From positions 10,256 through 74,255 of the forward strand of contig JBBISH010000015.1 in assembly GCA_037441385.1 (NCBI GenBank): a DNA stretch of 64,000 nucleotides, in the 5' to 3' direction. This document shows, in pieces, positions 12,001 through 18,000 of this stretch. The DNA comes from Myxococcales bacterium (GTDB lineage: Bacteria > Myxococcota_A > UBA9042). Each line of letters opens with the position of its first letter. Position 1 is the stretch's first letter. The position numbers are program-made.

Positions 12001-15000
12001 GCAGCCGGCCACGGTGGGCGAGGCGGCACCGGCCCCCGTAGCGGGCGCAGCCGCCAATGGCATCCCGGCGTCGATGCCCTGGAAGGGCGCGGCCAACGGC
12101 TTGGTCACCATCCTGGAAGTTTCAGACTTCCAGTGCCCGTTCTGCTCGCGCGTCGGCCCGACCGTCAAGCAGATCGTCGAGGCCTACCCCAACGACGTCA
12201 AGATCGTGTGGGCCAACCAGCCCCTGCCCTTCCACAACAACGCCAAGCCGGCAGCGATCGCCGCCCTGGCCGCGCACAAGCAGGGCAAGTTCTGGGAAAT
12301 GCATGACAAGCTCTTTGGCAACCAGCAGCAGCTGAGCCCCGAGAACTACGAGAAGTGGGCCAAGGAAATCGGCCTGGATGTGGCCAAGTTCAAGGCCGAC
12401 CTGAACGACCCGGCGATCGCCAAGCAGATCGAGAAAGAGCAGGCCTCGGCCAACGCCACCGGCGCGGGCGGCACGCCTTCGTTCTTCATCAACGGCAAGC
12501 TGATCCAGGGCGCCCAGCCCTTCGAAGAGTTCAAGAAGGCCATCGACGCCGCCCTGGCCGACGCCAAGGCCGTCTCGGCCGGCAAGACGGGCATGGAGCA
12601 GATGAAGCTGGCCGCGGCCAAGACGGGCGGCGACACCGGCACCAAGGTGGTCGAGTACTTCTTGGAAGGCAAGGCGCCGGCCGCCGAGGCCGCTCCCGCC
12701 AAGCGCGAAGAGGCCAAGGCCGATGAGGGCCCCGCCACTCCTCCGCCGGACAGCTACGACGTGTGGAAGGTCCCGGTCGACCCCAAGCGCGACTCGGTCA
12801 AGGGTGACAACGACAAGGCGCTGATCACCATCGTCGAGATTTCGGACTTCCAGTGCCCGTTCTGCTCGCGCGGCGCCAACACGCTGACTGAAGTCGAGAA
12901 GGCCTACGGCGACAAGGTCCGTCTGGTGTTCAAGCACCACCCCCTGCCGTTCCACAAAGACGCTCGCCCAGCTTCGCTGGCGGCGATCGCGGCCGGCAAG
13001 CAAGGCAAGTTCTGGCAGTTCTACGACAAGGCGTTCGCCAACCAGCAGGCGCTGACGGACGAGAACTTTGTGGCTTGGGCCAAGGAAATCGGCCTGGACA
13101 TGGCCAAGTTCGACGCGGTCCGCAAGGATCCGGCGACCGACAAGATCATCACCGAAGACATGGACATGGCCGGAACGGTCGGCGTCCGCGGCACCCCCGG
13201 CTTCTTCATCAACGGTCGCAAGATCGTCGGCGCCCAGCCGCTGCCGATGTTCAAGGCCGTCATCGACGAAGAGCTGAAGAAGGCCGAGGCCGCGGGCAAG
13301 AAAGGCCAGGCTCTGTACGACGACATCGTCGCCAAGGGCAAGGTCTTCTCGGAACTGAACGACAAGGTCAACGACTTCAACGTGGAAGGCCTTCCGTTCA
13401 AGGGCAAGAAGGACGCGCCGATCACCATCGTCGAATTCTCGGACTTCCAGTGCCCGTACTGCTCGCGCGTCGCTGAGCCGGTCAAGGCCGTGTACGAAGC
13501 CAACCAGGACAAGGTCAAGGTGGTGTTCGCCCACTTCCCGCTGCCGTTCCACCAGATGGCCAAGCCGGCGTCGACCGCCGCGCAGCTGGCCTTCGAGCAG
13601 GGTGGTTCGGAGATGTTCTGGAAGGTCCACGACGGTCTGTTCGCCGCCCAGCGCGAGCTGAGCGAGGACAAGATCAAAGAGATCGCCACCGGCGCTGGCG
13701 TGGACAAGGCCAAGCTGGAAGAGGCGCTCAAGAGCGACAAGTACGCCGAACTCTTCAAGAAGACCCAGGAGATGGGCGAGAAGGCCGGCGTGGAGGGCAC
13801 CCCCTCGCTGTACATCAACGGCCGCAAGTTCGAGCCGTCGGCGGGCTACGCCCCCGAGTCCTTCGCCAAGGCGTTTGCCCTGCTGAAGAAGTAGCGTAGT
13901 TCGAAGGCGACGAGTCGCCAGGCGGAGGCCGTCGGTCGCGGGATCGGCGGCCTTCGTGCTTTTTGCGGCCCTGCCCTGCCCGGAGCCCGCAGCCAAAGGG
14001 GGCGGGGACCCCGGTTTGGGCCCAAAGATTGGCCGGAATTTTGTGCCGAATTAGACGGATTCCGTATGAACCCCGGCGCAAGCCCGCAGCGGCACCGCCC
14101 CAGCTTGGGCGACAGCGCCAGGTCGGCTGTCCTCACCTCGATCGGAACGCGCCGTGGGCGGCTTGGCCCAGGCGGGCGCAACCGGCCGGCGCCGCAATCC
14201 GTGGCGACCTGGGCGGAAGAACGCCGGCTTTGGAGCAGTGGTTACGGGCGAGGCGCCAGCACCGGCGGCACCACGGTCACGGGTTGCGCGGGCGACAGGC
14301 TCGGCTTGGGCAGATTCTGTAGGCCGGCATCGGCGGGCGCGGCGAGCATCGCCAACAACGGCGCGGAGTCGGCTTGGAGCTTCCAGGTCACGCTGGTGCC
14401 CGCGGCCTCGGCCTGGACGAGCGCCGGCGGCCGTACTGCTGCGCCCAACGCGGCGTCGGCCTCGGGCGCTGGCGCGGTGGCGGGTGCCGTCGTCGGCGAC
14501 AGCTCGCGCGCCAAGCGCATCGCCTGGGCACTCGAGGCCATCAGCGTCTGGTGATCGACCGAGCCGACGGGGACCAGCCGCGCCGCGGCCTCTGAGGTGC
14601 GAGCTAGCAATACGGCAATCTCGCTGAGGTTTTCGGCCGTGCGCCGCTGACGATCGTCGGCGGGCGCCGCCTGCAACTCGTGGCGCTGGTCCGCAACCCA
14701 AGCGTCCAGGCGGTCGCGCAGGGCGCTGGCCGCGTCAGGCCCTTTGCAGTCCAACCGCACCTGCATCGACGGCGGGTCCGGCTGGTAGACCACGGCGACC
14801 TGCTTGACGTTTTGCTGCAAGGCCCCGGCGGGCAGCCAGCGCGAGAAGCCCTTGGGCTCCAGGCTCAGCGACCACAAAGGGCTGCCAGCGCGCAGCTCGC
14901 GCAGTCCCTGAACGGCCACGGGGTCGTCGGCCAGGGCCGGCAACTGTTTGGTGCGCACACGCGCCAGCACATCGACCGCGCCATCGTCGCCGATCCACAA

Positions 15001-18000
15001 GACGTGCGGCCCCGCCGCGACCGCCCGCCACCGCGCCTTGGCGCCGGGCACCGACAGCAGGGTTGTCAGGCCAGAAGGGGCTGAAATCGCCGAGCTTTGC
15101 CGCAGTTTGGCCAGCCGGCGGACCTGGCTTTCGGCATCCTCGAACTCGAGGAGCAGCGCCGCCCCTTCGCGGGTGCGCACCAGGACGACGACCGGATCGC
15201 GGGGCTTATCGAGCGCCAGCGCGCGCAGCTGCGTCAAGGGGCTGAGTAAGCGGGCGGCAAAGGGGTCGCGCTCGGCTTGCTGAAGCAACCTGGGCAGTTG
15301 TGCCATGTGGACGCCAACGATCTGCTGTGCCGAGACCGGCAGGTCGTCTTGGGTGGTCGGGTCGCTGCGCCGCGCGGCCAGCGCGACTCCGCCGACCGCG
15401 ACGCCAACCAGCACGAGCGCCACCATCGCCATGCTGCGACGCGAGAATTTGGCGTCAGGGTCGCGCTGCACGAACCAGGCGATGCCGATGCCAACCCCAT
15501 ACAGCAACACCAGCGGGGCCGACATCAAAGTCTGGTTGATCGGGTCGGGGGTGGGCGTCAGCACGGCACCGATGATGAAGGCGATGACGATCCAGTAGCG
15601 ATAGAAACCGAGAAAACCCTTGGCAGAAACCAGGCCGACGGCGGCCAGCACGTACATGAACAACGGCAACTCGAACACGGCGCCAAAGGCCACGAGCATC
15701 AGCGTCGCAAACGAAACCGTGCTGGCGAGCGTGGGCTCTAGGGTCAGGCCCGGCGCTTCCGTCGTCATGCGGATGAGGAAGTCCGTCATGAACGGCAGGA
15801 CAACGAGGTAGCAAAAGGCCGCACCCGTGACGAAGCAGGCGACGCTGCCCGACAAAATCGGCACGATGAGGCGCTTTTCCTTGGCGAGCAGGCCCGGCGC
15901 CACAAAGGCCCAGATTTGATAGAAGACCCACGGGCTCGCCAAGAACAGGCCGCCGACGAGCGACAGCTTCATGTAGACTTCGATCGACTCGGTAATCTGC
16001 AATGCCTTGATAGCAAACAGATTATTGTTTGCCATCGCGTCGCGGATCGGCTGACTGAGCCAATCGTAGAGCTCGATGCGGAACGCCCACGCCACGAAAA
16101 AGGCTGCGATCACCGCGATCGAAGAGCGCACGATGCGGGTGCGCAGCTCGATCAGGTGCTCGCGCAGGGACATCGTGCCCTGGTCCTGCACGGCTTCGCT
16201 CATGGGATCGGGTCGCTGGCGGGAGGTTCAGTGGCCGCCACCACGGCGGGGTCCGCGGCTGGCTCAGCGGCTGGCGGCGGGGACGCTGCGGTTGCGGGCT
16301 GGGCGACAGCGACGGCGGCAGGGTCGGCCACGTCGCCGCGCGCTTTGGTGCCCGGCAGCGGGTCTGCGGTGGGCATCCGGAAGTTTGGCTTGGAGCGCGT
16401 GCGATTGGTCTCGGACGGCATCGCGCCAGCGTCTTCCAAGGGTTCAGGTTCGCGGTGGATGGTCCACGGGGCCGGGGCCTCGCCTTCGCTGCGCTCTTGC
16501 GCCATGCGGCGGCGGACATGCGCGAGCACTTCGGGCTCGGCCGGCGCCGCGGGCGGATGGGCGGCTGGCTCAGGCGCAGCGCGGGTTTGGCTAGCCTCGG
16601 GCTCGCGAATCGAGTCCTCGACCATCGAGCGCACGTCGGCCGTGGCGTCGTGGACTTCGCGCGTCAACTCTTCCATGCCCTGGCGCAGTTCGTGCTGGGC
16701 CAAGTTGGCGGCACGGCGCAGATCGCGCAGGCCGGTCCCCACAGTCTTGGCCACCTGCGGCAGCTTGTCGGGACCGACAAAGATCAGCAGCACGATGATG
16801 ATGAGAGCGAGCTCGCCGCCGCCGATGCCGAACACACTCACCTCGCGATGGCTACTGACCGTGGTTCGGGCGGCAGGGCTGGAGCCACCGTGGCGATGGC
16901 CTGAGTTGGGTTGGGTTCGTGGCCGCTGCTGGCCCGGGTCCCCAGTTCATCGATCCGCCCGGAACGGATTCGGTATCAGACTATGCGGCGCACCCGCTGC
17001 GGTCAACCAACCGCGGCCCACAGCGCCGCGCCGCGGGCACCAAGTCTTTGGCGTCTAGCGGAATTGCAGCCCACCGGTCAGCTTGCGGCGCCCCACCAGG
17101 CCTACGCAGCGCGCGCGTTGGCCCAGCGAAGAGTCCGCAGTCACGGTCGCCGGCACCGCCTGCAGCAAACGCCGCACGACGTGGGCCAGCCACGGCCGCG
17201 CGCCGGCCAACAGTCCGCACAACACCAGGCGCTCGGCGCCCCCCAGCCAGACCTGCTCCAGCGCAAGGTGCGCGGCCACTCCGTCTTGCACTTCGCCGGC
17301 CGGCAGGGCAAACCGAAGCGCGTCCAAGTGGGCTCCGCGGTCCAAAGCCTCTAGGGTGGCGGCGTCGACCAGCCAAGGCGCAAGGCGGCTGTGCAAGGCC
17401 GGCAGCGCCGGGTCCAGAGTCGGCGCCAGCCACGACCCCAGAACCACGCGGGGCGCGGCGGGCGGTTGCAGCACGGGCGGGCTCGCCCACTCGGCAGGCA
17501 CGTCGCCGCTCACCACCTCGCGCAACACCAGCAGGCCGTCTGGCTTGAGCTCGCGGGCCACTTTGTTGAGCACCCAGGCCGGATTGCGGTACGACGCCAG
17601 CGTGTCGAACAGCGCGATCCGGTCAAAAGACGCGGGGCCAAACGCCACGTCGCCGTAGCCGCGCGGCAAAAGGGTCAGGTGGGCGGCCACTTCGGGTCGC
17701 ATTTGCGCGTGCCAAGCCCGCAGCTCGCCGTCGTCCAGGTCGGTGACCGAGACCCAGTGCTCCGCGGCGGCCAGTTGTTCGGCCAGCTGTCGCGGGGCAG
17801 AACCGGCCAAGAGCACCCGCCCAGGCGCCTGCGCGAGCAGCCACGCGTCCAAGGGCGGCAGAATGAGCGACGCAGCTTCGGCGTGTCCGGCATGGGGCGG
17901 CGGCGGCACCGCGTGGTTGCGCCGGACTCCCTCGATTTCGCGGCGCAGACGCACCATCGGCAAAGCCTCGGGATTAGAGATGGAAGCGGCGAGCGGCCGC

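What a model noticed while it worked through the whole genome (the two positions that open the first line are those of the whole stretch)
14242..16203. TatC with a seventh membrane helix and a 340-residue periplasmic TP0453-fold domain
The only TatC (653 aa, after tatB) runs on after its six helices into a seventh hydrophobic helix and a folded ~340-residue domain that resembles the Treponema membrane-associated lipoprotein TP0453. The fusion is fixed in family UBA9042; by topology the extra domain lies in the periplasm at the exit of the Tat translocase.
Evidence so far: Sole TatC Pfam hit. The C-terminal 400 aa match 22 of 22 family genomes; 10 of 10 loci examined have it in one ORF with TatC; all 14 library hits carry PF00902. 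Model: helix 255-278, pLDDT 80-90 over most of 281-620; Foldseek hits are TatC structures and TP0453 (3k8j E 8.6e-5, prob 1.0). The 2026 Tat review PMC13673990 (passages) names only extra-TM TatC forms of haloarchaea.
(Added by a program. Inside this text positions count along the whole contig: contig position 10,256 is position 1 of the stretch shown here. "Call 12" and the like, gene names such as g00115 and contig names such as C1 are that model's own, and its searches are not shown. The text may have been shortened before it was handed on; [...] marks where a part breaks off. The agent that wrote the report below was given it as the finding of a first reader that could run no searches.)

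Follow-up and report, generated by a model that had tools for sequence, protein, structure and literature searches.

The report
Seven-helix TatC with periplasmic domain
In one whole class of myxobacteria-related microbes, the core subunit of the machine that exports folded proteins carries an extra membrane helix and an outward-facing domain of untested function; the same layout with a different domain was noted in anammox bacteria in 2010.

Summary
Confirmed, and wider than reported. The genome's only TatC (653 aa, after tatB) has an intact six-helix core, a seventh hydrophobic helix and a ~340-residue folded domain closest to TP0453 (VIA Z 13.2, 224 residues, 4% identity). The domain is in 36 of 36 family genomes; 62 of 63 other TatCs of the class also have helix 7 plus a tail (one is cut by a contig end), against 0 of 92 TatCs checked outside it. 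These TatC cores form one branch, and the domain is under purifying selection. Best reading: an ancestor fused a whole signal-anchored periplasmic gene to tatC; the domain is a non-catalytic accessory on the periplasmic face of the Tat core (0.45). Periplasmic location is inferred; function is untested. A twin-arginine self-export signal is not conserved. It is not a TP0453 family member and is unrelated to the M. xanthus loop insert. New variant of a known kind.

The parts
14242..16203 (-). tatC gene, 653 aa, sole TatC of the genome
   Evidence: TIGR00945 above its cut-off
15469..16167 (-). TatC six-helix core (residues 13-245) with signal-binding and polar-cluster residues H16, E19, F100, E109, T216, D220, Q224
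   Evidence: VIA Z 23 to Aquifex TatC
15442..15468 (-). basic cytoplasmic linker after helix 6 (residues 246-254)
   Evidence: mean 3.8 K+R against 1.6 D+E in 62 homologues
15370..15441 (-). seventh hydrophobic helix (residues 255-278), inferred signal anchor, N-in/C-out
14341..15363 (-). folded alpha/beta domain (residues 281-621), TP0453-like fold, inferred periplasmic
14500..14655 (-). helical hairpin (residues 517-568) inserted in the domain; not covered by the alignment to the shorter family f4 tails
14245..14340 (-). Pro/Ala-rich, low-confidence, variable C-terminal tail (residues 622-653)
16200..16841 (-). tatB-like gene (213 aa); its stop overlaps the tatC start
   Evidence: a tatB match lies upstream in 87 of 93 loci

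Best explanation
A working TatC to which an ancestor of the class fused an entire gene for a signal-anchored periplasmic protein of the TP0453/DUF3352/DUF4836-like fold group. Shown: intact core, helix 7, fold, class-wide retention, one branch in the TatC tree, purifying selection, stand-alone relatives that begin with their own signal or anchor helix. Inferred: helix 7 is inserted by the ordinary Sec/YidC route with its basic linker inside, so the domain folds in the periplasm. Inferred and least certain: the domain sits on the periplasmic face of TatC, three copies per (TatBC)3 core, as a non-catalytic collar or cap that braces the core or the thinned membrane around it, the role that the unrelated loop insert plays in M. 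xanthus.
For: Core residues for signal binding invariant in 62 of 62 family-type and 61-63 of 63 class sequences. Helix 7 in 62 of 62 and 62 of 63 class loci; 0 of 77 plus 0 of 15 outside. One branch, SH-aLRT 99. Domain dN/dS 0.02-0.17 in 8 of 8 pairs; core and domain distances correlate, Spearman 0.85. No invariant residue across 42 class tails, only P, G, L, P at 90%, and tails trimmed to 120-245 aa in family f4 but never lost: a structural, not catalytic, pattern. Full-length model pTM 0.76, equal to the domain alone, which suggests a defined domain-to-core placement (inference). Class-specific core residues lie mostly in or beside periplasmic loops (58, 74, 141, 147, 158, 221). Precedent for a periplasmic domain strengthening TatC-TatC contacts: PMC13323110, sections 6 and 10. 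Stand-alone signal-bearing relatives.
Against: No experiment and no coordinates in hand; docking rests on one global score. The covariation test is weak (Neff 77, clade bias; 6 of the top 10 core-to-tail pairs use periplasmic loops, but the top pair links opposite membrane faces). Tail sequence and length vary greatly (153-499 aa), and the tails of f3 and f5 could not be shown homologous, which also fits a loosely tethered passenger. Linker charge bias is absent in some families (f10, f11, f13, f14). Most TatCs need no such domain.
Confidence: 0.45

Rival explanations
1. Exit-side carrier: the TP0453-like domain binds lipid or the hydrophobic parts of newly exported Tat substrates (for example Tat lipoproteins) and helps release them or reseal the membrane.
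For: Fold match to TP0453, which a review describes as membrane-inserting and a proposed lipid carrier (PMC5421087, passages). Transport is placed at the periphery of the core, in thinned membrane (PMC13323110). Several domain helices are amphipathic, hydrophobic moment 0.35-0.49.
Against: 4-11% identity, TM-score under 0.5; a shared fold shows no function. Amphipathic helices are expected in any alpha/beta fold. The genome has two LolA matches of its own. No conserved pocket residues; domain cut to 120 aa in 4-5 f4 genomes.
Confidence: 0.2
2. Passenger fusion: a neighbouring envelope gene merged with tatC; the domain keeps a job of its own and Tat transport ignores it.
For: Stand-alone relatives exist with their own signal or anchor. 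TatC tolerates unrelated additions (FecR, two loop inserts). Domain evolves faster than the core in 8 of 8 pairs (equal dN/dS in one).
Against: No split or loss seen among the complete class loci examined (33 family, 60 other); the one domain without TatC (G103) lies at a contig end. Class-specific changes in periplasmic loops and pTM 0.76.
Confidence: 0.2
3. Self-substrate: the S-R-R before helix 7 is an internal twin-arginine signal, so Tat exports its own folded domain (class IV substrate) or is auto-inhibited by it.
For: This protein reads S-R-R-S-M-A before helix 7; R256 is kept in 53 of 62. Class IV substrates exist (PMC13673990, section 6).
Against: RR near helix 7 in only 27 of 62 and 12 of 62; Z-R-R-x-hydrophobic-hydrophobic in 16 of 62 and 4 of 62. 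Helix 7 is strongly hydrophobic (mean 2.3) and the domain has no cofactor motif. The positive-inside rule explains the arginines.
Confidence: 0.06
4. Helix 7 is a cleavable internal signal, releasing a soluble periplasmic protein, or the topology is otherwise different from the one inferred.
For: A-L-A ends helix 7 here; A-x-A in 24 of 62 homologues.
Against: 38 of 62 lack it, as do most other families by inspection; no cysteine lipobox in 62 of 62.
Confidence: 0.07

Closest known systems
TatC-FecR of Candidatus Kuenenia stuttgartiensis, kustc0286 (Medema et al. 2010, PMC2881027; passages read)
   Same: Sole TatC carrying a C-terminal domain predicted to be non-cytoplasmic; function untested.
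   Different: The domain there is FecR (PF04773); here no Pfam family matches and the fold is TP0453-like. Different phylum, so an independent fusion (inference).
Myxococcus xanthus TatC, PDB 9E03/9E0S (Deme et al. 2026, PMC13323110; abstract, sections 6 and 10, passages)
   Same: Folded periplasmic domain on TatC in a related group.
   Different: There a 177-residue insert (127-303) in a periplasmic loop of a six-helix TatC, a homotrimer; here C-terminal behind a seventh helix, loops of normal length; only the cores align.
Nitratifractor salsuginis TatC (same paper)
   Same: Large periplasmic addition to TatC.
   Different: Loop insert, disordered in the structure.
Treponema pallidum TP0453, PDB 3K8G-J, Pfam PF20740 (seen through review PMC5421087, passages; the structure paper was not held)
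   Same: Best and only whole-domain fold match (Z 13.2, 224 residues).
   Different: 4-11% identity, no Pfam match, no lipobox, tethered to the inner membrane, extra helical hairpin.
DUF3352 (PF11832) and DUF4836 (PF16120) proteins
   Same: ESM Atlas feature neighbours at 0.91; signal-anchored envelope proteins of unknown function.
   Different: No HMM match of any of 42 tails; lead only.
Haloarchaeal 10- and 14-helix TatC (PMC13673990, passages)
   Same: Extra membrane helices on TatC.
   Different: Even helix numbers, duplicated core or four-helix extension, no soluble outside domain described.

Membership tests
TatC (PF00902, TIGR00945) | HMM match above the curated cut-off | tested here: met
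   206.9 bits against 25.1; 188.9 against 132.7
TatC (PF00902, TIGR00945) | Six-helix glove fold | tested here: met
   VIA Z 23.0, rmsd 3.1-3.4, 223-226 residues to 4B4A/4HTS
TatC (PF00902, TIGR00945) | Twin-arginine binding and polar-cluster residues (E. coli H12, E15, F94, E103, T208, D211, Q215) | tested here: met
   H16, E19, F100, E109, T216, D220, Q224 in 62 of 62; E. coli equivalence from motif context and PMC13323110, D211 from PMC13673990, no direct alignment
TatC (PF00902, TIGR00945) | TatA/B partners present | tested here: met
   tatB adjacent, second PF02416 gene on contig C3; tatB upstream in 87 of 93 loci
TatC (PF00902, TIGR00945) | Exports twin-arginine substrates | not testable with these tools
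   needs an export assay
TP0453 family (PF20740) | Sequence match to the family HMM | tested here: not met
   0 of 42 tails match at E 0.05; no TP0453 chain at E 10 with the profile; one search had no positive control
TP0453 family (PF20740) | Alpha/beta/alpha fold | tested here: met
   Z 13.2, rmsd 4.2, 224 of 251 residues; next row Z 8.8 covers only the hairpin
TP0453 family (PF20740) | Lipid-modified cysteine anchor | tested here: not met
   no Cys at the end of helix 7 in 62 of 62
TP0453 family (PF20740) | Amphipathic helices that insert into membranes | tested here: inconclusive
   moments 0.17-0.49; no mapping onto the TP0453 helices possible
DUF3352 / DUF4836 | HMM match | tested here: not met
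   no match at the tatC locus
DUF3352 / DUF4836 | Common fold group with TP0453 | tested here: inconclusive
   Atlas scores 0.91-0.92, 116-151 shared features
TatC-FecR type (Kuenenia) | C-terminal domain on the non-cytoplasmic side | tested here: inconclusive
   odd helix count and basic linker point that way; prediction only
TatC-FecR type (Kuenenia) | FecR domain PF04773 | tested here: not met
M. xanthus-type TatC | Domain inserted in a periplasmic loop | tested here: not met
   PF00902 matched 1-208 without insert; domain follows helix 7
M. xanthus-type TatC | Same domain fold | tested here: inconclusive
   9E03 aligns to residues 15-252 only
M. xanthus-type TatC | Domain homotrimer | not testable with these tools
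Class IV Tat substrates | Conserved Z-R-R-x-hydrophobic-hydrophobic before the last helix | tested here: not met
   16 of 62 and 4 of 62

The most novel reading that the evidence does not exclude
The domain is a built-in exit-side module of Tat: a TP0453-like lipid- or substrate-binding collar that receives exported proteins or reseals the thinned membrane at the rim of the core. It would be a dedicated periplasmic helper of Tat, kept across a whole class, and the four independent periplasmic additions to TatC would point to a step after translocation that other bacteria solve with separate, unidentified proteins.
Probability: 0.2. Interest if true: 0.78.

Novelty: new variant of a known kind. 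Interest (0 to 1): 0.52.

Why it matters
TatC is usually drawn with six helices and both ends inside. Here a class of about 100 genomes has, without a seen exception, a seventh helix on the mobile helix 5/6 side and a periplasmic domain. With FecR in Kuenenia and the two loop inserts, this makes at least four separate periplasmic additions, none with a tested function. It gives a clean deletion test of whether Tat uses an exit-side helper, a constraint on where TatA can dock and substrates can leave, a large marker for cryo-EM, and a first functional context for an uncharacterised TP0453-like fold group.

Tried and rejected
Read-through or assembly artefact: rejected. Family-only feature: rejected. 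Twin-arginine self-export, lipoprotein anchor, conserved signal-peptidase site: not conserved. Replacement for LolA: the genome has two LolA matches; LolA, LppX and LprG were not among the top 50 rows, which does not exclude them. Pfam, NCBIfam and PDB sequence searches with the domain found no family. The M. xanthus domain was not among the matches. No paralogue of the domain in the own genome by tblastn or profile; the DUF3352-like protein on contig C48 did not align to it. No gene for a stand-alone relative next to tatC in 92 outside loci. The convergent triple thioredoxin is not a conserved neighbour (2 of 93). Covariation gave only a weak hint. Literature searches that found no description of this fusion: (DUF3352, no paper); the library lacks most subscription papers, and no supplements were opened (those of PMC13323110 might list further atypical TatCs). 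Expression and raw reads were not checked.
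Full report
Observation. The minus-strand ORF 14242..16203 encodes 653 aa; its ATG overlaps the TGA of a 213-aa tatB-like gene. PF00902 covers residues 15-230 and TIGR00945 passes its cut-off. It is the only TatC match in the genome (90.9% complete); a second TatA/B gene lies on contig C3. After the six TatC helices come a short basic linker, the most hydrophobic segment of the protein (258-276) and about 370 further residues. AlphaFold2 with 62 homologues gives mean pLDDT 86, pTM 0.76, helix 255-278 and an alpha/beta domain at 281-621; the domain alone gives pLDDT 88, pTM 0.76.

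The core looks functional. H16, E19, F100, P103, E109, T216, D220 and Q224 are invariant in 62 of 62 family-type proteins and kept in 55-63 of 63 class sequences. By motif context they correspond to the E. coli residues that bind the twin arginines and TatB in PMC13323110; I did not align to E. coli directly. The model matches Aquifex TatC at Z 23. A tatB match lies upstream in 87 of 93 loci.

Distribution. All 36 other genomes of the family match the domain profile; 33 carry core and domain in one match and 3 are split over two contigs. In the class, 100 of 107 genomes have a TatC match, one each. I fetched all 63 outside the family: 62 have a seventh segment with Kyte-Doolittle score of at least 1.6 and one is cut by a contig end; two of the 62 run off their contig; complete tails are 153-499 residues. 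Controls: of 80 TatC loci from a species-wide scan, three have helix 7 (two match the domain profile, one has an f4-like tail; labelled Myxococcales or Deltaproteobacteria) and 77 from other groups do not. In a phylum sample, 145 out-of-class matches were listed (112 matches were not shown); I fetched the 15 with open frames of 400 aa or more, and none has helix 7. Shorter frames were not checked. The class profile hit 1 of 243 out-of-class genomes, weakly and partly, with only 7 candidates scored per genome.

Origin. In a quick IQ-TREE tree of 139 TatC cores (16 of the 62 family-type rows, 63 class rows, 45 of 77 outside rows, 15 same-phylum rows; midpoint root, no bootstrap) the 79 class-type rows form one side of a branch at SH-aLRT 99. 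An iterated profile reached 28 of 62 non-family tails at E below 0.001, while reversed tails and 35,355 ORFs of the genome gave no false hit. Profile-profile comparison links the other f2 tails (probability 83), the long f4 tails (75; score 44 against at most 15 in 8 shuffles), the short f4 tails to the long ones (90) and f18 weakly (31-72); f3 and f5 stay unlinked. Core and domain distances correlate (Spearman 0.85). dN/dS in the domain is 0.02-0.17 in eight close pairs, 0.01-0.07 in the core. Weak stand-alone relatives exist: P0137 and P0139 (E 5e-5, 7e-4 in 1.8 billion proteins) and three ORFs in class genomes (L148, L149), each starting with a signal peptide or a basic stretch plus hydrophobic helix. 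Helix 7 plus domain thus looks like a whole signal-anchored gene fused once to tatC (inference).

Fold. Foldseek returns only TP0453 below E 0.01 (3k8j E 7e-5, TM 0.37/0.47, rmsd 6.1, 10% identity). VIA against 48,161 chains gives 3k8g Z 13.2, rmsd 4.2 over 224 residues, 4% identity; the next rows match only a helical hairpin. ESM Atlas neighbours are unnamed Myxococcota and Planctomycetota proteins of 228-299 aa (0.94-0.95), then TP0453, DUF4836 and DUF3352 clusters at 0.91-0.92 (one source). No Pfam, NCBIfam or PDB sequence match. The domain shares a fold with TP0453 but fails family membership on sequence and lipid anchor.

Topology. TatC normally has both ends in the cytoplasm (PMC13673990, section 5). 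The linker is net positive in 53 of 62 and 48 of 62 sequences and more positive than the far side in 53 and 41 of 62, so helix 7 most likely runs inside to outside and the domain is periplasmic. A few families show no charge bias. This is prediction. The S-R-R before helix 7 suggested a class IV Tat signal, but the motif is found in only 16 of 62 and 4 of 62. There is no lipobox and A-x-A occurs in 24 of 62.

Mechanism. No residue is invariant across 42 class tails, and the tail shrinks to about 120 aa in some f4 genomes but is never absent from a complete locus. That fits a structural accessory better than an enzyme or a specific receptor. The full-length pTM equals that of the single domain, which suggests a fixed placement on the core; class-specific core residues sit mostly in or beside periplasmic loops; 6 of the 10 top core-to-tail covarying pairs use those loops, but Neff is 77 and the top pair is topologically impossible. 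The Tat core is a TatC trimer packed at the periplasmic face, with transport at its rim, and the M. xanthus insert adds TatC-TatC contacts (PMC13323110). I therefore favour a periplasmic collar or cap (0.45) over a lipid or substrate carrier (0.2), a passenger (0.2), cleavage or other topology (0.07) and self-export (0.06). Whether the domains form a trimer could not be examined.

Comparison with what is known. Earlier notes of this scan on four other genomes led to Medema et al. 2010, whose text I checked: Kuenenia TatC has a C-terminal FecR domain predicted to be non-cytoplasmic (PMC2881027, passages). That changed my novelty call: the architecture is known, this domain and lineage are not. 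The M. xanthus domain is a loop insert (127-303) and aligns only through the core. The 2026 review mentions the haloarchaeal 10- and 14-helix forms and the M. xanthus domain, and not Kuenenia (passages, sections 5 and 6); PMC13186574 was seen as passages. Searches found no account of this fusion; supplements were not opened and most subscription papers are not held. TP0453 function is taken from a review (PMC5421087, passages), not from the structure paper.

Verdict. Real, ancient, class-defining and apparently undescribed; a new variant of a known kind, with function untested. Interest 0.52.

Noticed in passing
window 11888-13894 (+): 668-aa protein with three DsbA-like thioredoxin domains (NCBIfam Rcas_1661 family above cut-off), convergent with tatC; next to tatC in only 2 of 93 loci.
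   Followed up: partly
window 17055-17963 (-): Weak methyltransferase upstream of tatB; seen within the flank in 23 of 30 family loci and 0 of 63 other class loci.
   Followed up: partly
P0079, P0081, P0092: TatC fused behind PF20154 plus PF00795 domains (apolipoprotein N-acyltransferase-like), 783-808 aa: another TatC fusion, linking Tat to lipoprotein maturation.
   Followed up: no
L147:3148-4515 (G103, family f17): The domain (E 6e-9) without helix 7 or TatC upstream, near a contig end, in a genome where no TatC was found; broken gene or assembly fault.
   Followed up: partly
L231:379-2499 (own genome, contig C48) and L149:2022-3698: Signal-anchored proteins with a DUF3352-like or tail-like body and a C-terminal type IV pilin-like segment (weak PilA match for L231, E 3e-4).
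   Followed up: partly
L107, L106, L112, L116 (family f4): TatC tails reduced to 120-132 aa after helix 7, still alignable to the longer f4 tails: a natural minimal version.
   Followed up: partly
L171, L183, L205, L206, L228: Gammaproteobacterial TatCs with long acidic C-terminal tails that share a short R-P...E-L-D motif.
   Followed up: no
L124, L125: Out-of-class TatCs with about 500 open codons upstream of the core; possible N-terminal fusions.
   Followed up: no
P0071: TatC running into a DEAD-box helicase start (466 aa); looks like a frameshift chimera.
   Followed up: no
window 21253-27162 (-): 1969-aa repeat-rich, probably secreted protein.
   Followed up: no
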